Shown here: positions 32,196 to 62,703 of the stretch, in pieces
Numbering within the stretch: the stretch's first letter is position 1
How the letters are laid out: each line of letters opens with the position of its first letter
NCBI RefSeq assembly: GCF_003704095.1
Contig: NW_020847750.1
Coordinates: 372,001 to 436,000 of the forward strand
Direction of reading: 5' to 3'
DNA: 64,000 nt
Source: Pocillopora damicornis
Lineage: Eukaryota
Notes under the pieces: model-generated
What the model was told of the DNA's origin: nothing
Databases searched by the model: none
What the model saw: the letters and a program-made list of their open reading frames with translations, nothing else
Program-made: the position numbers and the translations under genes

Positions 32196-33347
32196 ATGGT
32201 AGGAACAGCGATTGAAACTTTGTTACGCGGCCAAAGATGTTACAAACTTTGTTCAGTTATTATTCGTTAACCTAGTTCTCTTAGCGATTTTGTCTGTCTT
32301 TGTTGTTACAGGAGAAGTGTTCCTATCATCCGGCCGCAGCTTATGAGCGACCACCGCTCAAAAGTCCGATGGTGAAGAGAAGAAAGAACGGAACAACTTC
32401 TAGTGTTAAAAATGTTCAAATTGCAGTTCTGGGAAAGGACGGTGTAGGAAAATCAGGTAAATTTACTCCTTACTCGGTCATTAAACCTCCGCTGAACTGT
32501 TAAGGGTTGTTAGCTATGTACTGAACAGTAGATCAGTTCTTACGCTCTACATAGAATCTTTCCGCAACAATGTTTACTAATAACTAGAAACTAACATTGA
32601 AGTAGAAACGAGTTTCACTTTCATTAAGATAGAAACCACGATGATTTCAGACAATGAACTAAAATAAACATAGCGGAAGCTTGGTAGAATCTCGAAAAGC
32701 TAGTTTAACCGCAACTAGTGAAATCACAAAACTGGCGAGATCATATCACATTGTTTGTGACCAAACAAAAAGCTTTAATATGTATCATTTTTGACAAGGC
32801 GTTGAATACGTCTCACTTTGTTTTGTAAAAGAAACCCAACATAGAAATGTTCATTAAAAATCTCCCTCCGAGGGCAAAGAAAGGGCGAGCTGAGGAAGAA
32901 TTTTCAAACAATTGTCCGGCTTTAAATTGGCGAAACCGCGGGCGCCCCACCTGCGGAGAATCGAGCATTAATAGTCTTAGCCCAAGGAAGCCTTGGCGAG
33001 ACGGCTTCCGAATTACAAATAAGAACCTTTCAAAGGAACAATAAGTATAGGCAGATTTTTTCATTGTCAAAGAGAAAGTTTATTTTCATAATTACATTCA
33101 CACTACATAAACAAGTATTAAAGTGCACGAGTCTCCGCTTATTTGCCCGATCTCTGCTTTTTTTCGCTGAGGGCTCTTTCAAATGGAAGAACAATCGTCA
33201 GAGCGGGCAGATTACTCGGTTATTTGCGCGAAATTGTCAAAGAAAACTTCTTGACCTGATAACGTGGTACGTGTTAACTCTACTGAAATGTCCAACTACG
33301 ATGCATCAAAAACCACCGTCGCTGAGGTCGCGTTTGACATTAACATA

Positions 33348-33396
<49 letters not shown>

Positions 33397-36300
33397 AGGT
33401 TCCTAGTCATTGACTGTTGTAACATATGTTCCCCAGCTTGATAGTTTACAGTATCAGATACCTTAAGGAAGATGAATTGACACGAACTCTCTGGAAGATA
33501 GAAATTATCTTTTATTAGCGTATGAACTATAATCTGCTTTTGCGATTGCTCTTTAAGACACTAAGCATGATCAGCTTGTGAAAAGTAAAATATTTAAGTA
33601 CAGCATTCTCTTCAGTAAATCTATTGCATTTAGTTCACGTGTCTTATCATTTTTTGGGCTGTTGTTCAGCACGATTACAATCAGTCTTTGTATCACATAA
33701 TGGTTTGACGGGTATATATAAATATAGAGATACAAATATAACTTTAGGCTCGGCTCGGCTCGTTAATAACTGTCGTATCTATTAACACGGAAAATCTCGG
33801 CTGTTATTGACGTGCAATGAGCCGCATAAGAAGGGCCACCCGTCCTTTGCAATTTCTAGTATTTCAAGCACCTGCTAGTATCGACAATTAACAGAGTCAC
33901 GACTAAGGATTTAAGAATAAAAAACACTGGAGTTATCAGAGAATTTTATCGTAGGAGTTCATCTGTATTTAGGCTATGATTTAAGAAGCTTCATGTCACG
34001 AATTACAAAATCTTTTCGCGCTATGAAAACATGGCTACATCGAGTTTGAAAGTGACCGTACAATATTAGTTTGCAAGAAACAAAGATACTGAAAAGACAA
34101 CCGTTAACAAAGTAAGGGACAAGAGTAGTCATGGATGGAGAGGCGCAGATTTCAGTCGGCGAACTTGGCTCAAAAACTTGGCTAAATCATGGTCTTCAAA
34201 CCCTTGATGCAGTTTCATGCGCAAGCTGCAAAACCTGAAGTCAGAATTCGTTTTCTGGTTGATTGCTATAATTTAACATGAAGTAAACAGTCTTAAACTG
34301 CTTTTTTAATTCACTCTGAGAGTAGAATCGTAAAAGAGGGAAAAATATTACCTTGTTTTCCTCAAATACGTTTTTAATCCCTAATTTAATTACCTTACCC
34401 ACAGCCGACTATCTTGTACGTTCTACATGTTCTGTATACATAGGCAAATGGAATTTTTACTAACAGGGTTTATCATTTTTCCACCCGATCCGCCAGCATT
34501 TACAGTTAGAGCTCTCACCAGACGTTTCATTGGGGAATACGACAAAACATTAGGTAAGCTTACGTTCTTATAACCGACATAGCAGTCACTACGTTGCCGG
34601 CAAGTTTACAATAATTCTGCTACACTTAGATAAGCTCTTGTTATCGTTGAATTGTTCCTTGGATAAATGGTTAATTACCAACTGAAAACCATCTTAGTAT
34701 GGCCATCTTGTCACTTTTCAACTAAATGCGCTATTGATTTATCTGTGAAATCTTAGCAAGGGATCTCTACCCTCTCATTAGCCTAAATTTAGGCCATGTA
34801 TTGCAAGACGAAAATAGCACTGGAAAGGTCGGGAATCTATCAAAGGAAAAAGTCGAAGAACATCACGAAACGAAACTCTATGGTTTAATTTGTAACTTAT
34901 AAAGAAATTTGCAGATAGTTTTTAGCGAAAAATTGTCTGGTTTTAGTATCATCAAAAGGGCGCACGACTTTGTGTAATTCTATATTTACTAGTGTTAACG
35001 CGGTTACAAGCTCATCAAAATTCGCCCAACTTTTCCCTTCATATACGACATGCAATTCACTAATAAAAACTTACTGAAAAATGAAAAAATAACTGAAAAA
35101 AACAGAAAAAAATGAAAGTAAATTTATGGACCGTTTATAAATCTCTCACCCTCTACTCGAAAGTCTTTGTAAATCGAGAATTGTTGTTATCGCCGCCGAG
35201 ATAGAGGTAGATGACTGAAGTAAACCACATTAGGTTTATGAATCTTATCTCGACGGTTGATGTGTCATCTAGGTCAACATTAACACGACCTCTTCCTTTT
35301 AATGCAATGCCATGTCATTCTAACAGAAGCCTCCCTTGGAACAATTGCTGTTAATTATGGTATCTTTTATCATGTTTCCTTTATTTCTTGACGTATCTTT
35401 GGGCTTTCTATCCTCCCACGGAATAGGTGGAAGTTCAGTGTTTTATCGCAGCGGAAACATCGTATTGAAACTTTACCTTACATTAACCGAATCACGCAGT
35501 CGCCCGTGATTTTATAGAAAATGATTTGACTGATTAAGATAGAAGGATAGTGCTTTAATCTTTCCGTAAAAAGTTGTTTGCATGGCGTTCAGTTTTTCAC
35601 AATAGGAGAATGAGTATGAAATCAGTTTGAAACTATAGGAGAAAAAGTGAACCTTCATGTATTTTCTCGAACATTCAATGATGGGCGCAAAGGGAACTTA
35701 AATGCATACTTCATGCGAGGAATTCTAATGTGCTTTTTTAATTTGCTACAGAATCTACATATCGTCATCATGTAGAGCTCGACGGTCAGTTTCTGTCTCT
35801 AGACGTCTTGGACACAGCAGGAAAGGTACAGCAGGCCGTTTTCACGCTGAACATAACTGTGAACTAAATCTTGACAGGCCTTGGACTTTTCTGGATAAAT
35901 ATGAGTAGTATTTGCCATCTCGGTTCCGTTCTGACCCCCTCTCTCCCTCAATCCACTGGCGAATTTCTTCACACGCGAAGAACGACATTGGAGAACGTGC
36001 GGATCAATGTCAGTATCTGAACAACTACGCACCCATCCCCTCCCCCCCCCCAACCCATCATTAATCCTAACTTGTTATCAGTTGACTGTTGATGGGTTAA
36101 GGGGGGGTGGGGGGGGGGTAGATACGCAGTTGCTCAGATACTGATCATTGCCGCATTCAAGAAAGGTTTTTTTAAACGAGGTTAGAGTTTGCTCCATTAA
36201 CCCTCCCCTCCACTGCAGATGATGATGGAGCCTGTCAGGGAGAAGGCTGAGCTGCAACTAAAATGGTAATATTCGTCTGTGCTTTTTCAGAACTCTTTAG

Positions 36301-36683
36301 AAAAGATCGATAAGTGCGTCCACACAGGATCAGACTTATTTTTCGTCCTCTACTCCACAATCGACCGATCCTCGTTCGAGGAAGCCTCCTTGCTCTGTCA
36401 GTACCTCCTGAAAACAAAAAACGTGAATCCGGCTTGCTTAATTCTTGTCGGCAACAAAAGCGACCTGAAGCATTTCCGAGAAGTAGATGAATATGAAGGA
36501 CGTCTATTGGCTCAAGCCCTGGAGTGTGGTTTCTACCAGCTGTCGGTATCGGAAGGATTCGATGACTCTCAAAATGTTCTTTACAGTACCCTCAGGCAGT
36601 ACGTGAATACACAGAAACACGGATCGCCTTCCATCAGATTGTTTATTGACAATGTATTGAGTCGGAAAAAGTCAGTAACTTAG
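32196..36683 (+). CDS. RASL11/RASL12/RERG-like small GTPase, paralog 1 (~223 aa)
   Basis: Exons 32196-32198 (ATG), 32312-32456 (...IAVLGKDGVGKS), 34497-34553 (AFTVRALTRRFIGEYDKTL), 35752-35825 (ESTYRHH...DTAGK) and 36291-36683 (...LVGNKSD...SVSE...SRKKSVT*). LTRRFIGEY and SVSE are RASL11/12-RERG hallmarks. Confidence 0.92.
33351..33392. repeat. (TA)n microsatellite
   Basis: About 21 TA units. Confidence 0.95.
36001..36152. mobile_element. Palindromic MITE
   Basis: caatgtcagtatctgaacaactacgcac...tacgcagttgctcagatactgatcattg inverted ends; second copy at 52405-52513. Confidence 0.75.
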
Positions 36684-37734: not shown

Positions 37735-37823
37735 ACGAGAAGGACTAACGATCGAAATTTCAGCTTTAAAAACTCGTTACGGTGGCCAATTTACATTACC
37801 AACTCAGTTGACAAATCCATCGA

Positions 37824-37860
<37 letters not shown>

Positions 37861-37865
37861 ATTCA
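37735..37865 (+). mobile_element. Degenerate Penelope-like terminal repeat
   Basis: gaaggactaacgatcgaaatttcagc...ttacggtggccaatttacatt...cgacgcagcaccacagtttctttagaaacttaccccctttattca. Confidence 0.72.
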
Positions 37866-40800
37866 GAAGCAGAAAGACGTTTTGCTAGCGACCCGTCTTT
37901 TGGCAAACATAGCTCAAGAATCAACTGATCTGAGCACGACAATCTTACTCGTTATAAAATCAGTCTACAGTTTGTTTACTTGTAGTATTTGGTGGCCATG
38001 GTTTTCATTTACTTTAATCTCATTTAAAAAGGTATTTTTCGGGGGATGTACACCTTTTGAATTGTTTTCTGACTGCGTAGGTGTTGTTTATTTATAGTCT
38101 TACGTCTCCCAGCCAAAATACATTCCTGTCTTACTTTTCAAGTTTAAAACAAAACTTGTTTTAATTATGCTATTTTTTTGGCTATGTATCAGAGAAGTTG
38201 CAAGCCTGGACAAAACATTTTTTTTATCATACACAATAAAGCTGAAATAGGAAAATAAAACATTTATAAGTATTCCATTGCGACATGACTTCGAATCTGA
38301 CGAATGGCGCAACACTGCTTCCATTTTTATTCCAGGTTTATTTTTGTGTCAAGAAGGCTAAGATGAACCCTCTCGTAATTTCCACTTCGTCATGAAATAC
38401 GTCAAACAAGGGAGATAACCGAACGGAATCCAATTATAGGGGACGGAATTACTGTTGATAACCACTTCTGCAAACGAATACAAACAAGAACAGAACTCAA
38501 GTGTTTTTTTTTTGTCGCATTTTCAAAGAACCCAGCATTTTAAGAGGGTTTAAATTCCTGTTCATGCTCGATAGCTTACGTTTGTGCTTATCCAGCAGGA
38601 GATAACACCGGAATTCAACCACAACTTCCCGATGACTGTCTTAGTTGCTAAGGTCACTAGCTAGCACTTGCAACAATATTTAACGCCAAACAGTAGGACA
38701 TCGGACGCGAGATCGAATGAGATACGTGCATAGCAGGTTGCCGGGCAAGTTGCCGAATTGGAAGAGGCGTTTTTAGAGACTAGACCTTCTAGAGCTGTTT
38801 CTTAATTTAGCTCCTAATGCCCGAATTCAAGATGTCAACCTGGATGTTTAAAAGTGGAAGGCAAAGGAACTCTAGTCCGGTAATGTGTTTTTAATACATC
38901 TTGTGAGTCATCGTATGGCTTCTGTGAAAGCTTCTGACTATTGGAGACTCTGAGGAGATTGGAAACTGAAAGTGAGCAATTCAGACCAGTTTCTTTCACC
39001 TTTGACATACAGAGTATAAGTATTGACTTATCATTTCTCAATTTATTCTTACGAGAGAAATTTTCTTCAAGTGATAGAGGAATTACGAGATTTCAACGGG
39101 ATAACGGACGATGAAAGGAAACTCGGTTGAGAAACGGAAAAATATGCTAACCAAAACTAAATACGTTACCAAAATTTCATTTGCATGTAAAAATTCTGTT
39201 CCTTTTAATCTTTATGAGACATGAGAAAATTAAGTGTGGTTATTTTGTGCTCCCAGTCAAAACAGGCGCGGTTCTTGGATGTGTAACATGCGCATGTTTT
39301 CCTAACGATAAATCTCATGTAATCCATTTTATTTAGCCTCGAACACATTCAAAGCAATTTTACATTGGAGAGTTAGGAGTAGATTTAAAAGGCCTTCAGA
39401 ATTCTTTTTGCCGATGTGATTGTTTGTTAACACCTACAGAACTCACAGGCCGACGTTTCTACACGGCAAAAAATATCGAAAAAATCATACGCCATCCTTA
39501 GGGATTTTTATTCCTAACATAGTTAAGACGATAGCATCAATTTTGCCAGGTAAAAAGGAAAAGAAAAAAGAAAAGATGAAATGGCTTGCGAGGCAGTCTC
39601 GATCCTAACAACATTAGTGCTAGCCCACACATTGCAGAGGAGGAAAATTTAAAGTTTCATTTAATACCTTTAAAATCTATTAAGGAAATACGCAAGTCTG
39701 CCTTACGTTTAGGGAAGAGGCGTTCTTTTTTTGATAAGATCGCATGGGAGGAAAAAAAACAAACAAACAAATTGGCATTAGTGCACCCACTTGGCTAAAA
39801 GACGTGTCCAGAATATCTGATAAAGATGAATCGATTTCAAGTTGCGGATCTATGCGAACCGACAAGGAAACCACAACGCCCTTTGATTATCACTTCTATT
39901 CCAAAGATTCTTTGTTGTGTGTTACCGAAATCAGACTAAGCGATAAGATTAACATGACCCTCTACAGTGATAATAGTTTAATGCTTGGCTAAATGCATTA
40001 ACACATTAACAGGAACACAGCATGCCTTTGACTTGAAGAGATGTATTCATGATCGTATAGTTTCCAGTACAATCGGATCTCAAAAATTCTATTCCTCAGT
40101 AAAAAAGCGCGGCCTATTTTGAGGGTTCACATTTGTGAGAATGTCAAAGGTTATTTACTGATTCCTGTTGATCGATGGGAAGAGAGACAAAAAATGTTCT
40201 TTTTCTTGATAAAAGAGTCTGCGTTGGTCTCCAATTCAGTTACCACTTCATGCACCACTGAAAACAGGGCCAACATCGTTAATGTCCTTGCCGAGAGTTT
40301 TGTGTTTGTGGCTTTTACTGTGTAATTGCGAAGCTTATAGTGAGCAAATATACTTGATTAGTTTATTAATGAATAGACCCCACTTGAAGTTTGGCGTATA
40401 CACAAGTATTGAATCGAGTATAGAGTTTACCAACAAACAAACAGCAGTGCATTATGCGAGGGCCGTCCTGAAGTTTCACATATTACACATGTGTATAATA
40501 TTCTTGTTTGTGATGACTAACGAATTTTAAAGGACCCATGAAGAGTGCTCTGATTCTCAAAATAACAATTCATCTCATAAACATAATTCAAATTGACAAA
40601 TATCATAGAGCGAAGAGGAACGAGGTCAAGGTTTACGTCTTTTGAAAATGCAATGGCCAAAATATTATTTGGAATTTTTTTTAATATTATCACTTGCATT
40701 TATCCTTGCCTCTTTATGCTTGTTTAGAATGCTTCTGTTCCCTCTTTCTATCTCAGCCACCTAATATTTCGTGGAGGTAGTTTTGCTTTGTGAAAAAAAA

Positions 40801-43068
40801 AATAAAAGAATGCTGAACTCAAAACGCCAGGTTACTACTTGAAAACAGGCCGGCAACACGTAGCGAACAGACGCCATCCTACTGTGTGTCGTGAGGATAT
40901 GGAAAAATCTGGCTCAAAGCGGCAAAATAACACGGCTAAATGTTTTCAGTAATTGGATCACTTCCTGTCGTTCGTTAATTTTGGTATTCCACAATATTTT
41001 AACTCAGAAATGTATGATTCATCACGGAAACTGAATAAGGGCAGTTGTAAACATTAAGGCACGCGAGATATTTCACAAGTCACGAAAAGTATGTTGTGTG
41101 AAACGATGATATAAACGATGGCGTAAGAGAAGAAAAATGAAGGAAATAAAAATTGAGATGGCTGCTGTCAATCGAATTTCGCTCAGTCATTACCGTTGGC
41201 GGTCAGAGAGGAAAAGTTAAAATCTTTTAACTCGGGAAAATAATTATCATCACACAATAATTAAAATTATTTTGTGATGAGAGTAAACAAGCTCATCACT
41301 AATGCCTTTGTTTATTTAAAGAGCGCGAGCGTTATCTTGGTAAAGCACTAAATTCGTTTTCAATTGATTCCAGAAAAAAGGAAATGACAGCTGAAAGGGA
41401 AGATTTCAAAAGGAGAAAAGCATCAGTAAATAACATTATCTTGATTAAAACCAAAGTATAGTCTAGAAACTGCTGTGTGGCAGCTAATAGGGAGGATTGC
41501 CAAATAGGAAAAAATAATCCGTCTAAGAACTTCGTGTGTTTGTTTACACATAAAATTCTCGTCAACAGTATGTTCGAGAAGGAGACGTGCGGCAGCTAAA
41601 GGGAAAGATTGCAGAAAATGAAAAAAAAAAAAAAAAAAAGACTCAGTTTAAAGCGTCATCTTAATGAAACACCAAGGTCTAGTTACCAAGTAATTCTAGA
41701 AGGAGATGGGTGGCTGCTGAAAGGGAAGATTGCAAAAAAAAAAAGAAATCAACTAAAGAGCTTCGTCTTAAACAACATCAGAGTCACAGTCTGATCAATT
41801 CTTTAAGAAGATATCTGGTGGCAAGAAGGCAAATTTGCAAACATCAACAAAAAAAGGCCAAATTGATAAGACTACTTTTTAATCGGATAGCCTAAAAAGT
41901 TTCCGCATTGCTACATTGTGATTGGCCGTTTGCCATTCCTTCTCGTTCTGAGCCCGTAGATTAAGATTTTTTGCAGCGGAAGTCGAGCGATTTTTCCCAC
42001 GTCATATCTAAGCGCACTGACTGATACCTTGGACTGATGTTCTTACTATAATCATAACTTACAGCATGTGTTTACCACAGTGCAATCTACGTTACTCACA
42101 AACTGATCAACGAATGACAAAATACAAATAGATTGGCGATTACAACATTTTTAATGAGAGAGCAGAAAAACAGCCACATCACCAATTAAGATACTAAAAA
42201 TAAAACTACCAGATATCCATTTAATTTACATAGCAGTCTTTTGAAATCTATGAATTTTGCCTTGGCCTGAGTAAAATGTCATTGACGCAAATCTTGTCGC
42301 TGTAATTCGTCGAAAATTATGTGGTTGACAATTCTCTTACCAGGGGCTGCTTAGCTATTCTATTGAATGTATTGTTCGGACGTTATGAGTTTTCATTCAA
42401 ACGTGAACAATTATTACCGACAAAACATAATTGAAAACTTGTTAATTACCTTATTGTACCTGCAGTCGTCTTTAATTACGCAATTTTGATATGAAATTCT
42501 CGCTGAACTTTACCTAAAAGATATGAGATCCCACTACAGACCATTAAAAGAATTTTTTAAAAGTGGATTCAAGTTATACAATGAGATTTAGGAGTCATAG
42601 ACACGCTGAGATGTAAACTGTTCGCTTGACAAACCTTGGAAGTAGCGCGCATTTCGTCTGCAACTGGTGGACGTAATTAATGTACCATGTCTCAAGGGTA
42701 CCAACACATTAATTGTTTTCGTACCAACTGCCATGTTTCTTTTATTTGAGAGCCCTGTACGTGATGGAGTAAGAAAGATAAGCATGTCACAAATGTTTTT
42801 GGTTTTAAAAAAATCTTAGTCGATGATAAAGATTCATCTAACTTAAAGGCAACTTAATTGGTAAGTTTTGTAGCCAACACGCTTCTTAGCCTCTCACAGA
42901 AATCGGCAGAACTCGACTAATCCGAAATATTTGAGTATTTACGCTTATGGCTTCATTTATTGATGAAAATTGTAATAACTGGGTTAGTTACACTAAATCA
43001 GTGATTACGCCATAAGCGCCTAAGCGAAGTTCGACTAAATCTCATTGAAAAGGCGTATTAGCGCGCGT

Positions 43069-43127
43069 ACTTCCGGCAGCCCGCGTAGGGCAATAATTAC
43101 AAAGGTATCACCACAGGAATGACGTCA
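43069..43127 (+). promoter_or_regulatory. Candidate promoter elements of GTPase paralog 2: ETS site and full CRE
   Basis: acttccgg at 43069-43076 and TGACGTCA at 43120-43127 in a CpG-rich patch 150-200 bp upstream of the ATG exon. Confidence 0.4.
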
Positions 43128-43274
43128 ACAACAACGTAAAACAATAGTTCAAAATAACTGAACAATAACTTCATTTGAGATTTAATATCGAAGCGTTACG
43201 GACCTCCAACATTTTGAGCAATACACAACTGCTTTTGAGAGGAGTTGCACACACTGAAGACACAGAACTCAAAT

Positions 43275-46200
43275 ATGGTATGAAAAACAGTGCGTGTGTA
43301 ATGAGTGGTCTTTGTAGCTTTTTAGACATAGAAGTCTTGAAGTATGACTTTTAAAATCATTTTGAAGTGCAGTTGATTAGCAGTTTAACTTGTAATTATC
43401 ACCTCTAGCTCTTCTTTTATTTCTTTTCATCGGAATGTACGCCTGCTCTGAAAATTCTGACCACATACCTCGAAACATAAGGGCATCAAAATGGCTGTGG
43501 TAAACAAATGGAATATTCCACATAGTAGTCTATTATCATGGAGGCGATTTTAAAACGATTGATGACAGGAGGTCTCAACGGGCATTGCATAAAAATAAGG
43601 TTCTCTAGAGGTTGACTTGATATTTGGTTATCGGTACAGCTAAGAAGGCAAGTAAGAGGTCGAGCTGTTTATTTGGAAACGCAAGTCCTTGAGTGAGATT
43701 CTTCAAATTAGAAGTGAATGATTTGAAGTACATGCGTGAGGTACTGTTTGTTTTTCAGCTTAAAGTTCTCATTTCCGTCTTCTTCCTCCAGGATAGAACC
43801 ATGGATAGCTTGACAATTCCACCGAACTTCCAAAGTACAACAAAGCCTAGAGCAACCACTGGGAACAACAATGGAAACTTAAAAAGTATTCGCTCCGTCG
43901 TACTGGGAAAGGATGGAGTAGGAAAATCAGGTATTTGAAAGCCAAACATGTCAAATCGTTGCATGTTTTCTTTTGTTTTAAGCTGAAAGCTTGAAATCAA
44001 ACAAAGCTTGAAATCAAACAAAGCTTTATCTCACCGCGGGTCGCCGTATAAGGAATGTTTAAACAATTTTCTTTACATTGAAACGTTCTTCTAAGTCACG
44101 AGTTGTTGCTGTGCACATTTCTCGTGATGCCTTTTTACGCGACGTGTGGTTTTGAGATAACAGAGAATGAAGAAAAACATCACAGTAAAATTAATTGACA
44201 CCAATGTAGAATGTCGACAAAGTCATCGCTTCAACGCTTTAGCGTGAAAAACATTCTTTCATGTGTTTGCAACTATGTTTACACACTAGCGACAGGTGAA
44301 AGGTCATTGTAGTTGTTGATATTACAGTCACGTTCCATAGCACAGCTAGTTTCCCCGCTAGAAACATTTGTTTTTAGAATCCATTCTAGGCTATCTTTAT
44401 GAATTATTTCGAAACTGTTGAACGTGTGTTGAAGTTGGTACGTGCGCAAAACAGCCTGTTTTGTCGCTTATTCCGGAATTTTTTGGGTCTTAACACTTAA
44501 AACGTAGAGTTGCATGACCTGCTTCCGTGAAAGAAATTCGCTTTTCCGCCCGGGCGAAAATAAATTTTCCAGAATATAAGGACTTTTCAATCTTTTCGTA
44601 ACCATATCAAATATTTTCATTTCTAACTTCTACTAAACGGAGATTTCAGCTCGGAGAAACATATAAATAAAACTTGAACTCAAGGGACAAGGAGGGACAT
44701 CGATAGAGAACACAAAAACAGATAGCTTATTATGAAATTCATTGTGAAACAAACGCCGAACTTTAAAAAATGCGGCAGACCCTTTCAATGCGAGAAAAAT
44801 TTGATTCTTGAAAGTTTGAATACTCGAGCAAACGAACAGAGTATCAATGGATTGCGTGTCAAAAGGCTGTACGCGCCTTCATAAGTAGAGGAAGACACGA
44901 AGATTTGTGGTGGTTACCATAAAAGGAAATCCACCCCTATAGTAGACAATAACAATAAAAGCAAAGATGAACAATTCCGTATGCCAAGGGCCGAAATTCT
45001 AACAAATCAAGGCTGTTAAATTAGCAAAGCAAGGTTTGCACTAAAGGTTAAATTCAAACTTTGTTGACATATTCCCAGATCTAGAAACTTCGTATCATTT
45101 CTTTTCGTGACTACTGGCCATACATGCTGCAAAGTATGTTTATCAAGATAAATTAACACAGCTATTAAAAACAGATTAAAATTGTACAACCGCACTCGAT
45201 TTTAATTTAGGATAGCGTGAAAGTTTTATCAGCGTGTTTACAGCGTGTTTACATATTGCACGCAAAGTTGATTCCACTTACTCTGTCAGCATTCCTGTGA
45301 ACCACACCCAACACAGAATGGAAAAAGTTAAAAATATAGATGGATTATGCAGGGGTTTCAAAAACGTTCCCAATAAGCGGCCTCTGATGATTTAATAGGC
45401 GGCTGTGCCCGGAAAGGGGTCGTTAGGCAAAACCGAAACAAGAGCCTGCTCCGGCAGGCTAAAAAAAGGGCGGTAAGAGGTCTTACAAGCAGCAGTAGAC
45501 CGCCTGTAACTGGCTTTGAATGAAACGCGAGATTATGGTTTATAAAAGAGCTGTTTTGAAAATGTAGCTTGATGTTAGTAGTAAATAAACTATTTAAAAT
45601 AGCTAAGTAACATAAAGATTGCTTTTTGATTACTAAAGATGATTTTAAGTTGTTGTTGTTATTGTTGTTTTTAGCCTTCACAGTCAGACTTCTCACAAAG
45701 CGATACATTGGAGAATACGACAGCACTTTAGGTAATGAAAAACATTTTCTTCTTGTTCAATTTCATTGGCCAACAGCTTACCACGTGACCTGTACTGTAA
45801 AAGGGTCGGCTACACCAGATCAAGTTTTAGTTTTAAGCCAAAAAAGTGACAGATTATATCTAATTGCTACCATTTCTTTAACTTCAGAAGAAACATACCG
45901 TCATCGCGTTGAAGTGGACGGACAAAAAATCCTTTTAGAAATCTTGGACACTGCGGGACAAGTGAGTAGATCAAGCTGCTTTTTCAAAATTTACAAGAAA
46001 TTTATAGCTTTCACAAAAAAGAGTCCTTCGCAAGTTACTTATCCCTTTCTTAGGTCAAGAAAATTGGCCTTAAGCGTTTTTCGCCTTAGTTATTCCAGTG
46101 ACACAAAACCGAACCTAAGTAATCACAACAACCAATGAGAAGAAGGAAAAATTTCCTCAAGCGCGGGAAACCGCGAATTGTTGATAAGCATCCGATTGAC

Positions 46201-46884
46201 AGGGAAAGTAGTGCCAGTTTCTAGTCCAATCGTGGGCGCTGTAACGTAAAACCAATACAAGCCCATGATACTTTCGTGCCACTGTCTTAAAAATTGCTCT
46301 TCTGGCTTCTCTTTTCTGGAATTGTAATTCAAAAAGAGAGCAGGTCGCTTTTTCCATGATGCTCCTATAGATTTCTACATGACAAAGATATCTACGTGAA
46401 ATTCTTTTCAGTGACAACTAATAAACTGATGTTTTTCATCTCACAGAACTCTGTGGAAAAGATCGATGCATGTTCCTCGGCAGATGTATATTTCGTTCTT
46501 TATTCAACGACAGATCGTTCGTCGTTCAGAGAAGCAGCTCTAATCACCAAGTACCTCCTTGAGACAAGAAACGTCAATCGGGCCGCGATATTTCTAATAG
46601 CTACCAAAAAGGATCTTAAATACGAACAGGATGTGACAGAATACGAAGGAAGATTATTAGCAATGGAGCTCGGATGTGAGTTTTACACCATTTCAAGCTA
46701 CGAAGGGTTTGATGGTACGCAAGATGTTCTACGCGGTTCGCTTCGATTCTCTCTAAATAATAAGGGAAATGGTTCAAAATCTCCACTTATGACGCGGATG
46801 AGAAAAGGACTAAAACACAGGTCGCACACAAGTAGTCCCACTCCACAAGTGATTGAAAACAGGGACAGGACTTCGACTCTTTGA
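43275..46884 (+). CDS. RASL11/RASL12/RERG-like small GTPase, paralog 2 (~236 aa)
   Basis: Exons 43275-43277 (ATG), 43792-43930 (...VVLGKDGVGKS), 45675-45731 (AFTVRLLTKRYIGEYDSTL), 45888-45961 (...DTAGQ) and 46447-46884 (...ATKKD...RDRTSTL*). Same 57- and 74-nt internal exons as the other paralogs. Confidence 0.92.
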
Positions 46885-49104: not shown

Positions 49105-52100
49105 ATGGAAACCAAAGGTGACCAATTTGGAAGACGAATGGTAAGTAAATTTAACTGGGTAAATGTTTATTTAAACCCACTAAAAGTTGTGATGTTTAAA
49201 TTATCATAAAACTTGTTCACTAAGTAACAAAACATGCGACAAGGTGTATTTTTCCCCGATGTTAGATTTCTTATGCATTCTGCGTTTAGCTCTCGGAAAA
49301 TCTCTTGGCTGTCCACAAAGGAAACCCAGTAGCAATGCATTTAGATATTTGAGTGTTCTTTTTGCATCTTGCGGTGAAAGGTTGAGATGAGTGATTCCGT
49401 AGAGAAGTTAGTAGAAATAACAAGACGGAGCGATATGCATATTCTGACATTTAGGGAACAGCTAATGCATGCATGATTTTTTTTTGTTTTGTTTTGTTTT
49501 CCTGAAGTCTTTCCCACAAGATAACGCTGGCCATTCAGTGTTTCCACGAAAACCGCGGAATCTCAGCGTAGGGTCAAATAATAACATCGAAGAGGAGAAC
49601 AAAGTCATCAGAGCAGCTGTGCTGGGCAAAGATGGCGTTGGAAAAACCGGTGAGTGGAGAGCCTTTCATGTATTACAATAAAACCGCGACCTTACGAGGC
49701 CTGTCGCACGCGCCTGCAATTGAGGGATTATCACCAAACTTCTCTTGGAGCTGACACGGCAATAAAATGGTTTGAGAGAGCCTCTGGCTATCACGCACTA
49801 GTTGCCGCATGCAAGAGACAGGCATCCAAGGAAGTTCTACCAGGATAAAACGAAATGTCATGATAAAATCAAACGAAGGCTTCTTTACTAAGATTTTGTC
49901 ACCGGATGTAAAAAACATTAACAGCGTTGTAAGAGACTATTTAATGCCAAAATATCCTAAAATAAGTCAGGTAGAGATTTTCTCTGTATGTGCACTGAAA
50001 AAGACGTCATTACTAAGCAACTTTAGAGCGGAGGAATATTGACTGCTCGGCAATCCTGAAAATATTACTCGAATTTTCTTGTAAGTTCGTTGTTTGCAGT
50101 AGGTTTTCATGTGTGCCATACGTCTTTCTTTTCAAATTACCCCAATGTTTGGCGTTTTTCTTCCCTAACAAAATATAGTTTCAAGATTTTAACCTTTGAA
50201 AAACACAAAACACACTCGTCTGTAGCTCTACTACACAACAGTTGAGAACGATAAAAAAAGTTTGCGTGAGTACAGCATCTTCTCGCAGCAGGGAACCGAA
50301 CATCTTTAGTGAAACCCACTCCACTCACTCATCAAGTTTCCATTTCTAAACTTCAACATATTGACTTTTGGTAGGCGCAACAATGCTTATCGTCAGTAAT
50401 CAGATTTCTTTTATATCCTTCCGGCGTTTCGTGGTAAAGCTGTGACCAAAAATATCTATGTACAAATTCTTAAGAAATGTAAGGTGACATGAAATAAATT
50501 AATCTTTGGACTCTCTTTGATGGGACGACAATTATTCCGTGTTTTCGTACTCAAAAGTTACATTCATAATTTTATTTTAAGCTCTCCAAAACGCCATTGT
50601 ACAGTTCAGCGAAGCGTCAAGCCGCTCTGCTATGCTCCCGATTTTTCATAATTTCCCGATGACCCTTTAAATGGGGGTTTGTTTGTAAACTGATAAAACT
50701 TCCAAAACAATACTGTCGAAAACAAACACCTTGCTGTACGGCGAAACCTTTTGATGTTTAATCTTTCAGTTTTGTCATTTTGTGTTTTTTTATTTGTCTT
50801 TTCCTAATTATATTTACTTAATTGTCTAGTTACTTTTGTACTTTTACGATCACAAATCAATGTTGCCTAGTAGAAGTAATTCTAACTGATCTTTTACCTG
50901 GCTAGTTAACTCCTCAAAAATGATACTTATAGTTCCCTGGTGTGGTTGTTACACTGTACGAGTTGCCTAGTGAATTAGAGATAGGTTGTTATGTCGTGAT
51001 CAGACCCTACAGCTGACATTTTTTTAACAAATACGTTTTTTCTGGATAATATATTGATATTCCAGGGTAACATGAGCAGAGATTAGTTGTTACTCAGTGC
51101 CACTGGTTAAAATTATCTTCTAGTTTCATTCTCTTTTCCTTCTGCTAGCCTTCACTGTTCGTCTTCTGACACGTCGTTACATTGGGGAGTACGACGGCAC
51201 ATTAGGTAAGTTGATAAACACGATAAATACTACCTCACTGTAACAGCTAGTGACTAAATCAATAACGTCCTCTATTCTTGAATCTCTATAAGAATCATTT
51301 TATGAACAACAATCGATTTTCACTTGGAATGTTTTTTAAAATATTTAAATAATTTCAAAGGGGCGACACTTGTTTACGAGTTAGTAGGAAAATTACAGCA
51401 CGTAAGCGGAAAATTCTGATCTGTACCTTTCTCTCAAATAACAATTTATTTCTGAGTCACCCACTTATCAACAGAAGCACAGAGATAAATCTAAACCTTT
51501 TGATACAAAGTTCACGCAATTAGTGCAGATTGTAAGCAGTAACAGACGTACAAAATACCTTCAACTTTTCGGTACAAATTTTAAAAACTTCAAAGAAAGA
51601 ATACTACTGACTTCGAGAAAACGTTTCAGCAGGGTTAGAGAAATTTCAAACATTGGCTTTGCTACCAGAATGTACCGCTAACTAAACAACATTGCGTTCG
51701 TTCACGTATAAAAGCATAAACCTGACTAACTCACTAACAGACTGAAAAGATGAGGATCGCGCAAGGTGTTATCTTAGGAAGGCATTTAATTAGTTTTGAA
51801 TTAGCGTAAACAGTAAAAGAATTCCTCAAATTTTTTTTAAACCACAGAGAGCTGGTATCAGCATCGCGTTGATATAGAAGGACAAGAGGTCTTATTTCAT
51901 GTTTTTGACACAGCTGGCAAGGTATCAACCCTTTCCTTGTTACTTATCTTTTTTTGCAATCCTTTGATGTTGAAGATTTCATCGATTTCGGGGAATTATA
52001 GTTAGTGATGTCTCTGATCTCTCCACAATTTTTATTTATTGGTTCGTGTAAAGCTTTATCTGGATATTGTAACAGTTATTTAGTGATAACAGCACAACAT

Positions 52101-53502
52101 GAAGGCGTACAATTCAAGATGTCTGCAATTAATTATTAATTCAACTGCTGTAAACAACCAGTTTTGTCAAGTAAATTATCATTGCACTCCCAATTAGGAT
52201 TGACCTTTTCTTTTGCGATGAGCAGAACGAAGTGACATTTCTATTAGTAAGCAAGAGTAATTTAACTTGTTAATGACTCCAATATTAGTTGTGAAGGAAC
52301 ATCTCCATCTACATTCCAGTCTTGCAGTAATGATATGGCAAAGGCTATTAATGGCTTTCACGGACAATCAATTTGACTACGCATGTGCATACATTTAACG
52401 CTTGGAATCCATGACAGTATCTGAGCAACTGCTCACCTATCCCTCCCCTCACCCGGCAACAGTCGATTGATGACAAGTTAGGGTTAAGTTTCTCAGATAC
52501 TGAAATTGACCCAAGACTTGGATAACGATGGGTACAATCCTGGCAATTGCATATTAATACACAGATAAGTCGAAATCGAACTTTTGACAAGGATTCGAAA
52601 TCCAGTGCAAATCACAAGCCGCCTTCAAGCCCCTTTACTTCTTCATCTGATCACTTTTCATCTTTTAACTCTGAATATTGAAGACTAGGAATTGAACCTC
52701 AGAGGTCCTTTAGGAAATCGTGTTCGTGTGACAGGGCCCATTTTTTTTTTCGACGGCCCATAAGCGCTAACCCAAGGCTAAATTTTAATCCGGGTTTCCT
52801 TAACTCCTTTGTTCAAAAGCCTGTTTGGGATGATTTTCTCTGTTCTCATTAAAGCATCCAATCACAACACTGTAGACAAGAGAAATTCAGCTGGATTTTC
52901 TTTGAAAGCATTCAGATCTGAAATCAAATTTCGCACTTATCTTGGGTTATCTTAACCCAGCTTTGAACAATCAGGCCCTGCAATTTTCTAAAATTTACCA
53001 ATTTCAAAATTTTACACCTCCCTCTCCCTCCTTAACGTCTAACAGTTTTATTTTTAATATAATATTTCAGAATTGCAAAGAAAAAATTGATACCTGTGCA
53101 TCATTGGACATCATATTCGTAGTTTACTCCATCACTGATCGCTCATCGTTCCAAGAGGCCACCCTCATCATCAAATATCTACACGAAACAAAAAATATTC
53201 CCTCGTCAGCGATTTTTCTAATAGCAACGAAAGCAGACCAGAAACGACACACAGAGGTGACAGAATTTGAGGGAAAACTTTTCGCCGTAAACATGGGTTG
53301 TTCATTCCATCAGCTATCAAATTCTGAAGATTTTACTGAGCACAGCAAGATATTGAAACAAACTTATCTAAGAGTATCCCTTGGACATGTACAAAAGACG
53401 CCCAAGTCTCCACTGATGAGGAGATTGAAAGGAGGTTTCAAAAACAAGGGACAAACTGTCATTACAGAACACAGGTACCGATCAGGAAGTGTCGAATTTT
53501 AG
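49105..53502 (+). CDS. RASL11/RASL12/RERG-like small GTPase, paralog 3 (~246 aa, or 235 aa from ATG 49138)
   Basis: Exons 49105-49140 (METKGDQFGRRM), 49508-49649 (...AVLGKDGVGKT), 51149-51205 (AFTVRLLTRRYIGEYDGTL), 51848-51921 (ESWYQHRVDIEGQ...DTAGK) and 53071-53502 (...ATKAD...RYRSGSVEF*). Confidence 0.92.
52405..52513. mobile_element. Palindromic MITE, internally deleted copy of 36001-36152
   Basis: cagtatctgagcaactgctcacctatccctcccc...ctcagatactg. Confidence 0.7.
52732..52980. mobile_element. MITE with CAGGGCC...GGCCCTG inverted termini
   Basis: cagggccc at 52732 and ggccctg ending at 52980; subterminal taaccca/tgggtta. Confidence 0.6.
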
Positions 53503-54752: not shown

Positions 54753-55065
54753 CTCATCCAATAACTCTTAATTCCCACGGTATCAACGACTGGTATTCGA
54801 CTTATTTTTTCTTGTTTTCTTGTCACCATATTCCCACCAATAGCGTAGCTCCATTTTCTATATACAAAAAAAACATACAACACACAATTCCTCCATTCGC
54901 TCTGACGAAGAGCTAACGCTCTAAACGCCACCTTTGAAACTCTTTACGGTGGCCAATTTACGTTATCGACACAGTTGAAAATACTAAATTGCCCTGTTAT
55001 ACCCTCCCAGCGACGCAGCACCACAGTTTCTATAGAAACTTACCCCCTTAACTCATCCAATAACT
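54753..55065 (+). mobile_element. 5'-truncated Penelope-like insertion with 14-bp target-site duplication
   Basis: Direct repeat ctcatccaataact at 54753-54766 and 55052-55065. The insert starts with LNSHGIND (resembles the end of the PLE GIY-YIG ORF) and has a hammerhead remnant at 54902. Confidence 0.8.
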
Positions 55066-57932: not shown

Positions 57933-60902
57933 ATGAGACGTAAAAGAACGTGTTCAGCGAATCCTTCAAACATCACAAATGTCCACGCGGTGGTGCTTGG
58001 GTTGGATGGCGTCGGAAAATCAGGTAAGTTATAGCCTTGAGTATCACTGTATCATTACAACAAAAGCTGCAGTTGACTCTCAAAATAGCCCCCTCCGCCA
58101 AGAAAAAGACGCCGGGGAACTATCGAGGAACTACCGGAGGAAACGGAACGAGATTTCTTGGGATAACCTAAGATGGACTGGTGTCCCATCCGGGGGGAGC
58201 CTGTAGCAATATTGTTTATCATTTCATGCTACGGGAGTCAGACCGCTAGGATCATAAATTGGCCCATGAAAACAAACCTTAAATTCAACTTTCCAGCTAC
58301 GTTGTCCATCAAAAGGCTTGACTTCTGAAACCAAACTAGGGCTTTCGGAGCTATGAAGTAATCTGTTTCAGAAGTAAGGGAACACAACAAAATGCCAGGA
58401 ATTGGTTGACATTTCTAACTCATAAAGTTAAATTAAAAAAGTTATATACCAAGTAAAATAAATGTATTTATTTTAGTGGACGATTATTCGTCTTTAAATG
58501 CTTGAAAAGATGTTTAACGGCTTTCATCAGGTGCAGGAAAACCACTAAATTATGCATATCAATTACGAGAGTTTTATCGAATATCTTTGTCTTGTAGTGA
58601 TTTCGCAATCAATTATGATCATCAATTTAGGAACTTGCTCTCAGTAACAAACAGAAAAGTGAATCATCAGGCCAAAATAATTGATTTTCAGAGGGTTCCT
58701 AAAATAACCCAGCGTATAAAAACATATGTTTTGATATAATTTTTCAGTTATCAGTCGGGCATCGACGTGGGTATCATAAAGATATCATCGGCGATTGCAA
58801 TTGTTTCAAAATGCGATCAAATCAAGTGGCTTTCCTATATTCTCGAGATTAAGATCGCGGTCTTTTTCTGAAAGCTACGCGCGTGTTGACGTTTTTTCAA
58901 AAACCGCAACAGTTGTCCAATTACGATAAAAGGTTCACCCCAAGAAAGCGGCTAAAAAAATGGAGATATATCGGCCCAAATAGCAGATATTGACTTGGCT
59001 ACCAGGCGTACCTCTTCAAACGCTCCCAGTTATCGCTATTTCAATAAAGTATTTTCACAGAATTTCGCACAACGTCCAGCTGAAAAGTTTTGTTATTAGT
59101 GAAACATTGGAAAAAGAATGACAAGATATGTTGCACACCTGTAAGGCAGACGCGGGCGCAGACTGAAATCTCTCCAGCATCTTCAGATAAAACACTTGAC
59201 TATCAGCCATTCAGACGCCGCCAATGAAAACTGAGTAAATTCGCTCTTACTTCAAAGAATTCATTCAGAAGAATGACCCACAACAACCCATGAGTGGGTA
59301 TCAACAGTACCACAAAATACTGCAACAATAAACATTTACCGAGGGAACAAAACGGGTGCATATGCATAATCTTTTTGCTCCTAATGAAGTGCTTCGCGTA
59401 AGAACTCAAAGGAACAAAGTGAAATCACAATTTAAGGCATCCAAGAGGTCACGTTTAAGGGTGTACTAATCGTTTTCAAAATAACGATAAGAATGAGATG
59501 AGTTCACTAAGCTACGTCTTTGTCTCAACAACTGCTGGCTCAGTTTTTAACACTCAGGGTGAAGTCCAAATGAAATACAAATACTTCCGGTATCTGAATG
59601 CACTGCTGTTGAAACTTATCTAGCATACAAAATAGTGTAACACAGTGAATAAAACCGATTCAAGCTGAACTTCCATGGAAAACTGGAGAAGATACTGAAA
59701 GTAAACAACTTCACCCGTGGCACATGATGCTGAATTTTACATTTGAACGTATCCAACATTCTATGCAGTGCGTGCTAACATGATGGGTATTTCAAAATTA
59801 TCAGTGTTCTCTCAATTATTAAGTTGCATTGAATAAGATACGTGACACTTCAGACTTTTTCATGTTCAAAAACGTTCACCACATTCAAGTAGGGTTTATT
59901 GCTTGAATTCCTTTCATTGCTTCGTAGTTCTTAAAGTTCCATAGAAGATCATCAATGAAGTGGTTGTTTCAGTAGTTACATAGAAAAAATCCCACAGTTG
60001 CAATCGATCTTCGTTTGCACAATGACAAAGGGACACGGACACATACAAACAAAAGGACACGGAAAACTCTGTAAGACGTTTAACCAAACGAAAATATTTT
60101 TTCAGAACCAGAGAACGTGAGAACAGCGAGTAAGAGAGCACTGAACCACACGTATACAAGAAAAACTCGGTGTCACAATGACACGTCCCTAAAGACCTTT
60201 GTCAGTAGAGAGCTTATATACCATATTTGGTGATTTCAGTTAAAATAGCATGACCTACGTGATTCAAATGGATCTTAACGATCATCAGCTTCTAATACTT
60301 AACCGCAGGAACCATGACACTTCCTCTTTCTATGCTGCAGTTCTCGAGGTCAATGTCCTCAAGTCTGTATGTTAAACCGCAAGACAACTTTCGACCATTT
60401 AGACAAAAAAACAAAACAAAAAACAAAACAAAACAAGAGAGATTGCTCGACTTTAAGGTGCAATCTTTTTGTTAACGAAAGGATTGCATGACTTTTTTGA
60501 CATGCCCCTCAGGGCACAGCTGTGATATTTTTTTTTCAAACAAAGTCGACAAATAAAAGCAACGAAGAACCTTTAGATAGAAAAACATGTCTGGGTGTCC
60601 AGCATACCTCCTCTCAGACCGTCAACTGTTGACTTTTCCCCTTGTGATCTAAGTATTGACTTCGTTCAAGTTTCAGTTTCCTTGTGAAGGAGGTTGTTCT
60701 TGCAAACTTTAAGGCCATCTGAACGGTTGGAAATATTTTCTTTCTCTTGATTGACTGGTACAGAAGATAAGAAAGGAAACCTTATTTGAGTGTCAGGTCT
60801 AAAAGTAAATCTAGAGACACTGAGTGGGGAGACTTTCCTTAACATCTAGGCTCCTAAGAATTTGAAAATCAAAATCCTTAAGTTGGAAATTATTATGATT
60901 AC

Positions 60903-60956
<54 letters not shown>

Positions 60957-62703
60957 GAAAAAGTACGTTGTAGATAAAACTTCGAACTGAGTACACAATG
61001 TAAGCGCAATAAATACAATTTAATAAATAGTTTGATAGGATCAAAAACTTAATTCATGTAAGAATTCTTAAGAATGCTTAAGGCAATGCCTATTTATCCA
61101 ATAAACTGTCTCTTGGATTAACTCTCGTTTCAGCTCTCACTGTCCGATTCTTGACCAGACGGTTTATTGGAGAGTATGATGAAAGTTTAGGTGAGTGGCA
61201 AACTAAAGCCCCCAAGTACAGCTCCTACTTCACTATGAGTACAGCATCTAACTCAAACCTATCCCCTCCTTCCACCGTCAACTCATCCATCGACCATTCG
61301 AGATTCTCAACGGAGTTAACCATAAGCCGTAAAAGGGCCAAAAAGTTCAGCGGTTAGACGTAAAAATGGTCACTTTTTTTACCCTTAGTTGTAGAAAAAG
61401 TTAACCGTAATTTTTTTTTCAATCGCAACGGAAAGAAGTTTGCCGTAAGCCGTAAGAACCCCACAGAGACCTTAAGTCCTCTTGATTCGATAATGGGCAA
61501 CCTAAAAACTGTGAAAAATTATTTTGCACAAGTTTACATCAGACAAATAAATGTGGGTCCGCGAAGAAAACCTCATAGCGTCTCTCCCTTTTTTACTTTA
61601 ACCAGCTGAAACGAGGACTTAATATCTGACAGTTTTTTCTTTTACAACCTGCATTTCTTTTGAACAAGATACTGTAATTGATGTCATACATTGAACAATG
61701 TTTGGTATGGGCGAGATTGGATCGAGAAATTTTCCTAATGTTCGTCTCCGTTTTTATTCAATTTAATAGAGATGACATATCGACATCACATGACACTGGA
61801 TGGGCAATACCTAGCCCTTGACATCATGGACACGGCCGGAGAGGTAAATTTCATATGCATAATCAAATTGACGAGTTAGAATAAAAAAAGAAGTGATGCG
61901 TATACCACTCCATCATTAAATAACCGGAAACATATCACAACTCTTTCGCAAAGGTTCGCGTAAGGTTCGCGTAATGTTCGCGATGGCCCCGAAAGAGCTG
62001 CAAGTCCAACAAAGTGGTGATCACACTGCCGTATGTTAATGTTTCCCCGATAGTCCGCTGGTATCCACTTAAACCCCTGGGTGGGAAATATCACTGTAAC
62101 AGTGAAATGTTTTGCTCTCAAATTTTCTTCATACAACCGAGCAAGGCTACAAAACAGTCCTCTCGGACTACAATCCACGAGCCATGAGGTCAAAGTTTCC
62201 GGAGAACTAAGCACTGGGCCACCGCCCCCAACTCAACAAGGCAGGTCATCAACTACAGTAATTATTATTTTTCTTTCCTCCAGAATACGACACAGAAGTT
62301 GGAGAAATGCGCATCTTTTGGGGAAGTTTTCTTTATTCTCTTCTCTATCACTGATAGAGTTTCATTTTTGGAGGCGAAACGTTTGGGGAAATACATACAA
62401 GGAGTGAAAGACAATGATTGTGTTATGATTCTAGTTGGTACAAAGACAGACCTGTGTCGTTACAGAAGAGTCTCGAGAAACGAAGGGTATGAATTTGCTA
62501 GGGAAATAAGGTCTGTATTCTGCGAGATTTCAGTCTCGGAGGGATTCGTCGAAACAAACTCTCTATTGAATGATTCACTGAGACTGCATTTGAGCAATAA
62601 AACCGACCAGGAAAATGGCGACAAAGAGAAAGCGGGTCCTCTGTCCAGGATGAAAGAAGGTTTTAAAGGGATCTACACAAGGAGAAAGTCATGTTCACTT
62701 TAA
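57933..62703 (+). CDS. RASL11/RASL12/RERG-like small GTPase, paralog 4 (~213 aa)
   Basis: Exons 57933-58023 (MRRKR...VVLGLDGVGKS), 61134-61190 (ALTVRFLTRRFIGEYDESL), 61770-61843 (EMTYRHH...DTAGE) and 62284-62703 (...VGTKTD...SVSE...RRKSCSL*). Confidence 0.92.
58160..58268 (+). mobile_element. SINE 3' fragment
   Basis: gatggactggtgtcccatccgggggg...tagcaata...ttcatgctacggga resembles a common cnidarian tRNA-derived SINE (recall). Related decayed pieces at ~11700-11930 (+) and 62040-62230 (-). Confidence 0.5.
60890..60955. repeat. (TTA)n microsatellite
   Basis: About 17 perfect tta units; produces the spurious poly-Asn ORF. Confidence 0.95.
61300..61472. repeat. Dispersed repeat/MITE with recurring ccgtaa units
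   Basis: gttaaccataagccgtaaaa...gttaaccgtaa...gccgtaagccgtaag. Confidence 0.45.
62040..62230 (-). mobile_element. Decayed tRNA-derived SINE, 5' part
   Basis: cgctggtatccacttaaacccctgggtgg...cactgtaacagtgaaatgttttgc...ctaagcactgggccaccgc resembles the reverse complement of a cnidarian SINE head (recall). Confidence 0.5.

What the first reader, a model, noticed from the sequence alone, without database searches (positions are those of the whole stretch)
32196..62703. Four-gene Ras-like cluster with natural G12D- and Q61K/E-equivalent residues
Seen: P-loops are GKDGVGKS, GKDGVGKS, GKDGVGKT and GLDGVGKS (Ras GAGGVGKS), so all have Asp at position 12. G3 motifs are DTAGK, DTAGQ, DTAGK and DTAGE (Ras DTAGQ). 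Established: G12D and Q61K block GAP-stimulated hydrolysis in Ras; RERG/RASL11/RASL12 already deviate at position 12 but normally keep Q61. Inference: a lineage-expanded set of hydrolysis-poor, mostly GTP-bound switches controlled by expression (long introns and spacers) rather than GEF/GAP cycling, analogous to Rnd, RGK or Di-Ras proteins. Paralogs 2+3 and 1+4 look like sister pairs.
Basis: partly seen in the sequence, partly recalled or inferred. Interest (0 to 1): 0.75.

Follow-up and report, generated by a model that had tools for sequence, protein, structure and literature searches.

The report
Ancient coral RERG-like GTPase gene cluster
These are four working genes from a cluster of at least nine RERG-like signalling proteins with close kin in corals and sea anemones; they likely escape the normal Ras off-switch, but losing the classic Ras residues is usual in this family, so the "natural cancer mutations" are less special than they look.

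Summary
The motifs are real. Four spliced, intact Ras-like genes carry Asp at position 12 and K, Q, K, E at 61. They are RERG-family genes, part of a cluster of at least nine on this scaffold, inside a coral-plus-anemone clade (99/98).

Among 102 other RERG-type rows, 95 lack Gly12, 72 lack Gln61 and 35 have K/E61. Residue 61 is also the last codon before a splice donor, so K and E are likely single-base drift from CAG. Pair 2+3 holds, pair 1+4 is rejected (AU p=0.008), and the introns are not unusually long.

What does mark the clade is Asp12 (34/41 vs 7/102), Thr116 (34/41 vs 0/102) and a basic tail with an RRxS-type site and no CaaX. Best reading: RasGAP-insensitive, probably self-loading GTPases dosed by expression. 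No biochemistry was possible. New variant of a known kind; moderate interest.

The parts
32196..32198 (+). gene 1 start codon, last three bases of an upstream exon
32312..32456 (+). gene 1 P-loop exon (Asp12 codon at 32438)
34497..34553 (+). gene 1 57-base switch I exon
35752..35825 (+). gene 1 74-base G3 exon, ends on Lys61 (AAG then GT)
36291..36683 (+). gene 1 last coding exon: keeps Asn116, has Val146, basic tail
38533..38879 (+). gene 2 distal alternative non-coding first exon (5' limit is a contig end)
   Evidence: joint 38878/43791 in 2 of 4 runs
42853..43277 (+). gene 2 proximal alternative non-coding first exon (5' limit uncertain)
   Evidence: joint 43276/43791 in 3 of 4 runs in each call
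43801..43930 (+). gene 2 start codon and P-loop exon (Asp12 at 43912)
45675..45731 (+). gene 2 57-base switch I exon
45888..45961 (+). gene 2 74-base G3 exon, ends on Gln61 (CAA)
46447..46884 (+). gene 2 last coding exon: Thr116, Ser146
49105..49140 (+). gene 3 start-codon stretch of exon 49042-49140 (missed without RNA)
   Evidence: joint to 49508 inferred from a contig end
49508..49649 (+). gene 3 P-loop exon (Asp12 at 49631)
51149..51205 (+). gene 3 57-base switch I exon
51848..51921 (+). gene 3 74-base G3 exon, ends on Lys61 (AAG)
53071..53502 (+). gene 3 last coding exon: Thr116, Asn146
57933..58023 (+). gene 4 start codon and P-loop exon (Asp12 at 58005)
   Evidence: P0003
61134..61190 (+). 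gene 4 57-base switch I exon (Ser at Thr35)
61770..61843 (+). gene 4 74-base G3 exon, ends on Glu61 (GAG)
62284..62703 (+). gene 4 last coding exon: Thr116, Val146, predicted tail helix and RRKS site

Best explanation
These are four spliced, intact members of an old coral-and-anemone branch of RERG-family small GTPases that are likely insensitive to ordinary RasGAPs, are predicted to reload GTP on their own, and would therefore be dosed mainly by gene expression and possibly by phosphorylation of a basic tail. Shown: gene structure, splicing, residues, clade and tail motif. Inferred from Ras: Asp12, loss of Pro34 and (in three of four) loss of Gln61 block arginine-finger GAPs, while changes at 116 and 146 loosen guanine binding and speed exchange. 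Lys/Glu61 is most likely a released position held to xAG codons by the splice donor, not a selected oncogene mimic. Asp12 and Thr116 are the conserved clade features.
For: Profile-to-PDB best hit is RERG 2atv at 221 bits, versus 178 for M-Ras. The model of gene 4 (pLDDT 86.6) matches RERG at rmsd 1.7. Clade of 41 rows, support 99/98: Asp12 34, non-Gln61 38, Pro34 2, Thr116 34, Ile/Val146 31; Lys117 40, Asp119 41 and intact DTAG 38, so the nucleotide site is mostly kept. Papers describe N116H and A146V as raising exchange or GTP level in KRAS (PMC5980551, PMC9987992; passages). 12 of 13 K/E/Q codons at 61 end in G against 40% background, and column 61 ranks first of 77 variable columns for K/E/Q. 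Orthologues of gene 4 swap E and K. RRxS-type site in 25 of 34 tails versus 5.7 expected, CaaX 0 of 34. Gene 2 has two alternative first exons. Two neighbouring RERG-like Acropora tenuis genes move in opposite directions on symbiont exposure (PMC7850063; passages).
Against: No rate or nucleotide state was measured. Ras mutant behaviour need not transfer at about 35% identity. Asn116Thr is not the tested N116H; gene 1 keeps Asn116 and gene 2 keeps Gln61. Rap1 (Thr61) and Rheb (Arg at 12) are still switched off by Asn-thumb GAPs, which need Tyr32, and Tyr32 is 41 of 41 here (PMC2265111). RGS3 is reported to inactivate oncogenic KRAS alleles, and G12D is described as hydrolysing faster than other mutants (PMC11274496). 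Thr35 is kept in only 21 of 41 rows, which fits a non-switching protein as well. The 13 codons come from related genes and are not independent, so p=1.5e-4 overstates the case. The Acropora genes were not shown to be orthologues of this cluster (supplement unreadable).
Confidence: 0.5

Rival explanations
1. They are true cycling switches turned off by a GAP that supplies its own catalytic asparagine (Rap1GAP, TSC2, RalGAP or RGS3 type), so positions 12 and 61 do not matter.
For: Tyr32 41 of 41 and DTAG 38 of 41 in the clade versus 29 of 102 elsewhere. Rap1 and Rheb precedents (PMC2265111) and RGS3 (PMC9987992).
Against: Rap1GAP contacts Gly12 and Pro34, and these are 0 of 41 and 2 of 41 here. 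Changes at 116 and 146 would refill GTP quickly, if Ras logic holds.
Confidence: 0.2
2. They are RGK-like or pseudo-GTPase adaptors whose action does not depend on the bound nucleotide, and the tail does the regulation.
For: Thr35 lost in 20 of 41 rows (Ser in gene 4), position 61 free, and G4 and G5 both altered. Conserved tail motif with an RRxS-type site.
Against: P-loop GxxGxGKS/T, Asp57, Gly60, Lys117 and Asp119 are nearly invariant, and Gly60 is better kept than in other RERG-type rows (40 of 41 versus 42 of 102).
Confidence: 0.2
3. One reading: both Asp12 and Lys/Glu61 were selected as oncogene-like locks in a recent lineage expansion with long regulatory introns.
For: The pair Asp12 plus K/E61 is 27 of 41 in the clade versus 3 of 102 outside.
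Against: Non-Gln61 is 72 of 102 outside; K, E and Q interchange among close relatives; codon 61 sits in the splice donor; paralogues have anemone kin; intron sizes match a RIT-like control.
Confidence: 0.1

Closest known systems
Human RERG (PDB 2atv) and the RERG/RERGL/RASL11/RASL12 branch
   Same: Best PDB hit by sequence and profile; shared switch I region signature; non-Gly12; no CaaX (PMC2186344); close relatives are named RERG-like by NCBI.
   Different: RERG has Ala12, Gln61, Pro34, Asn116 and Ala146. The clade has Asp12, K/E61, variable 34, mostly Thr116 and Ile/Val146, its own tail motif and at least 9 clustered copies.
KRAS G12D, Q61K/E, A146V, N116H mutants
   Same: The same positions differ from wild-type Ras.
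   Different: About 35% identity background; the changes are fixed and old; no lipid anchor; effects unmeasured here.
RGK, Di-Ras, Rnd atypical GTPases
   Same: Loss of canonical 12/61 residues. Control by expression or tail phosphorylation is recalled knowledge, not from a call.
   Different: Not members: RGK chains score below RERG and R-Ras-type chains. Di-Ras-like ORFs seen in this genome run through G1 to G3 without the introns (label recalled). Rnd is Rho family (recalled).
Rap1 and Rheb
   Same: Non-canonical 61 or 12 with invariant Tyr32.
   Different: Both have known Asn-thumb GAPs; none is known for these proteins.

Membership tests
Ras family small GTPase | PF00071 domain and G-domain fold | tested here: met
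   4 of 4 last exons pass the Pfam cut-off; Foldseek top hits are M-Ras, RERG and RASL12
RERG/RERGL/RASL11/RASL12 branch | Closer to RERG than to classical Ras, R-Ras, RIT or Rap | tested here: met
   in the FastTree the genes fall in a 152-row group (97) with named RERG, RERGL and RASL12, apart from the outgroups
RERG/RERGL/RASL11/RASL12 branch | No C-terminal lipidation motif | tested here: met
   0 of 34 clade tails have Cys at -4; feature defined in PMC2186344
RERG/RERGL/RASL11/RASL12 branch | Cytosolic localisation | not testable with these tools
   needs imaging
RERG proper (one-to-one orthologue) | Groups with vertebrate RERG | tested here: not met
   Fish RERG (P0212) lies in another subtree; the backbone is weakly resolved
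Classical Ras switch | Gly12, Gln61, NKxD, SAK | tested here: not met
   Gly12 0 of 4, Gln61 1 of 4, Asn116 1 of 4, Ala146 0 of 4
RGK proteins | Closest sequence relatives are GEM, RAD, REM | tested here: not met
   RGK chains rank below R-Ras2, RIT and M-Ras for exon 4 and are absent from the best 60 for the profile
Constitutively GTP-bound atypical GTPases (functional class) | Low hydrolysis, GAP-insensitive, GTP-bound in cells | not testable with these tools
   inferred from residues only

The most novel reading that the evidence does not exclude
A coral-and-anemone subfamily of self-loading, GAP-proof RERG GTPases in which Asp12, Thr116 and Ile/Val146 were fixed together before corals and anemones split. 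An RRKS tail would act as a kinase-controlled off-switch in place of GTP hydrolysis, and the paralogues would be used as opposing dials when algal symbiosis is set up.
Probability: 0.2. Interest if true: 0.65.

Novelty: new variant of a known kind. Interest (0 to 1): 0.37.

Why it matters
RERG-branch GTPases are among the least understood Ras proteins (bioRxiv 2020.02.05.923433 says functional data are lacking). A ten-paralogue natural series that varies at 12, 13, 35, 61, 116 and 146 is a ready panel for testing which Ras rules carry over, and neighbouring RERG-like genes respond to symbionts in Acropora. The splice-donor effect on codon 61 is a caution against reading 'oncogenic' residues into this family. 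It does not show a new mechanism: atypical residues are the family norm.

Tried and rejected
Sister pair 1+4: rejected by AU test on 22 rows. Long introns as a sign of expression control: rejected; cluster introns are 113-3110 bases, and a RIT-like gene has about 2.2, 0.6 and 0.6 kb. The 57/74-base exon layout as a RERG marker: rejected, because the RIT-like gene shares it. Amphipathic tail helix: not above shuffles in any of 8 genes (149-487 of 500 shuffles reach it). RNA depth was not used to rank genes, since all runs were contigs. NCBIfam gave only the generic small_GTP model above cut-off. Earlier scan findings: none by place or sequence. Literature: 10 searches found no description of this cluster or of RERG kinetics; one search was too loose to inform. 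Three papers were not held and one supplement was unreadable, so published Di-Ras or RERG biochemistry and the identity of the Acropora genes remain open. My RIT-like outgroup model had two three-base slips at exon joins; it is an outgroup row only. A first model of gene 3 was one base off and was corrected; the tallies use the core domain, which was unaffected. No complex prediction was run, as no binding claim is made.
Full report
1. Observation. A six-frame scan finds the four P-loops and four DTAG motifs exactly as reported, all on the + strand; chance gives 0.26 such motifs per shuffled window. Each gene has a P-loop exon ending one base after GKS/T, a 57-base exon, a 74-base exon ending on residue 61, and a long last exon. 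The products are 223, 232, 246 and 213 aa without stops. RNA contigs (5 runs laid of 22 listed, 4 studies) list 12 of 14 coding-region introns as GT..AG joints; two are supported by contig ends only. A Logan protein (P0003) is 99.5% identical to the gene 4 model. Gene 2 has two alternative non-coding first exons.

2. The cluster is larger. The window is G000:C4385:372001-436000. Five more genes with the same exon plan have P-loops near contig positions 437034 (+), 445242 (-), 474096 (+), 482189 (-) and 553469 (+), and a tenth is on C211. A source names a protein 100% identical to gene 6 as Pocillopora damicornis RERG-like, so the host is a Pocillopora coral. Four further candidates with the same exon plan lie on other contigs; two of them sit at the base of the tree, so their family membership is uncertain. 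Of these 14 modelled genes, one has Gly12, one has Gln61 and none has both. The genome searches score only top candidates, so 14 is a lower bound.

3. Family and age. The best PDB match is human RERG, by single sequence and by profile (221 bits versus 178 for M-Ras). The AlphaFold model of gene 4 is a complete G domain (pLDDT 86.6) that overlays RERG at rmsd 1.7 (M-Ras ranks level with it by E-value). A tree of 155 RERG-type rows, thinned at 88% identity from about 220 domains with the family signature and complete motifs, plus 7 outgroups, puts genes 1-7, 9 and 10 in a 41-row clade whose named members are all corals or anemones (FastTree 99, IQ-TREE 99/98). Genes 1, 7 and 10 group with anemone sequences, so several duplications predate the coral-anemone split. 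Four Nematostella members share one contig length, and the Montipora orthologues of genes 3 and 4 have consecutive accessions, which suggests conserved linkage. Genes 2+3 are sisters (97/95); gene 1 joins them and gene 5; forcing 1+4 together costs 26 log units (AU p=0.008).

4. How unusual are the residues? In 102 RERG-type rows outside the clade (12 cnidarian sister rows set aside): non-Gly12 95, non-Gln61 72, both 68, K/E61 35, Asp12 7, Asp12 with K/E61 3. Using only the 150 representatives, of which 46 were dropped for lacking the signature or a motif and 22 as cnidarian-linked, 82 remain: Gly12 7, Gln61 28, both canonical 3. The sample leans towards the query, since 19 of 26 profile rows were cnidarian, and most rows are unnamed. 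Asp12 also occurs in a hemichordate (same P-loop as genes 1 and 2, Asp61) and in oysters. The vertebrate proteins seen mostly keep Gln61. So loss of Gly12 and Gln61 is the family norm. Clade-specific conservation lies at Asp12 (34 of 41), Thr116 (34 of 41 versus 0 of 102), Asn62 (35 of 41) and Ile/Val146 (31 of 41 versus 37 of 102), with DTAG better kept than elsewhere (38 of 41 versus 29 of 102).

5. Why Lys or Glu at 61? Codon 61 is the last codon before a phase-0 intron. In 15 genes of this genome with that intron it is AAG seven times, GAG four times, and CAG, CAA, AAT and AGG once each. 12 of 13 K/E/Q codons end in G, against 40% in the last exons. AAG and GAG are single-base neighbours of CAG that keep the donor-friendly AG (consensus recalled). 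Column 61 has the highest K/E/Q share of 77 variable columns in the clade, orthologues of gene 4 swap E and K, and gene 2's Gln is nested among Lys61 rows. The simplest reading is relaxed selection under a splicing constraint. The genes are related, so the p-value (1.5e-4) overstates the evidence, and a protein-level preference for a long polar residue is not excluded.

6. Mechanism. Shown: an intact nucleotide site (Lys117 40 of 41, Asp119 41, Tyr32 41), no CaaX (0 of 34 tails; 7 partial, fused or unparsed rows left out), and a conserved tail with an RRxS-type site in the last 20 residues (25 of 34 versus 5.7 expected from shuffles; 26 of 88 versus 15.7 in other rows). Inferred: Asp12, loss of Pro34 and loss of Gln61 exclude arginine-finger GAPs, a mechanism blocked by Ras hotspot mutants (PMC9987992, passages). 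Changes at 116 and 146 would speed exchange, as described for N116H and A146V (PMC5980551, passages). Together these give a mostly GTP-loaded protein whose output follows its amount and perhaps tail phosphorylation (PKA consensus recalled). Expression evidence is indirect: alternative first exons, and two nearby RERG-like Acropora tenuis genes regulated in opposite directions by symbionts (PMC7850063, passages; not mapped to paralogues). Intron length gives no support. Against: Asn-thumb GAPs act on Rap1 and Rheb despite non-canonical 61 or 12 (PMC2265111, passages), RGS3 acts on mutant KRAS, G12D keeps faster hydrolysis than other mutants (PMC11274496, passages), and Thr35 is lost in half the clade. 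Odds: 0.5 main reading, 0.2 Asn-thumb-regulated switch, 0.2 nucleotide-independent adaptor, 0.1 selected double oncogene mimic.

7. Prior knowledge and verdict. The proteins are already annotated RERG-like in public records. Ten searches of the held library found no account of the cluster or its residues; that library lacks most subscription papers. Other papers seen as passages only: PMC2186344, PMC6505131, bioRxiv 2020.02.05.923433, PMC12719659, PMC3141262. The finding is real, belongs to a known family, and defines an apparently undescribed coral-anemone variant. Novelty: new variant of a known kind. Interest 0.37.

Noticed in passing
window 4062-5111 (+) and 14189-15364 (-): Two single-ORF rhodopsin-family GPCR genes (PF00001, E about 1e-45).
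   Followed up: partly
window 6107-6472 (-): A 121-aa open frame that looks like a protein exon but has no Pfam match.
   Followed up: no
window 10825-10977, 12605-12854, 37770-37866, 54903-55056: A dispersed repeat of about 150 bases, with an inverted pair at 12605-12789; the copies laid with RNA contigs draw summed depth in the thousands, consistent with a genome-wide element.
   Followed up: partly
G000:C4385 near 445242 (gene 6, L001): Gene 6 has Asp at both 12 and 13 in Pocillopora-labelled records and their near-identical relatives; a 92% relative and the Oculina orthologue have Gly13.
   Followed up: partly
G000:C4385 near 557300 (gene 9, L013); P0070, P0075, P0078: These four of 34 tails end in an RVxF-like motif directly after RRKS, a possible phosphatase-1 docking site next to a kinase site (motif meaning recalled). 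A fish RERGL also ends in RRKSV.
   Followed up: no
   Followed up: no
P0064 (Porites evermanni): One record holds a gene 2 orthologue followed by the start of a gene 3-like domain, probably a fused gene model that reflects the same gene order.
   Followed up: partly
G000:C4385 478900-482200 (gene 8, L005): The most divergent cluster member: Val12, Glu at 57, Glu at 119; it falls outside the 41-row clade.
   Followed up: partly
window 32344-32376: A short out-of-frame upstream ORF overlaps the second in-frame ATG of gene 1 (seen in the sequence).
   Followed up: no
L028-L034: Small groups of Ras-like ORFs without introns in G1-G3 on contigs C4076, C1122, C1173, C871 and C2045, several with Thr, Ser or Leu at 61.
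   Followed up: no
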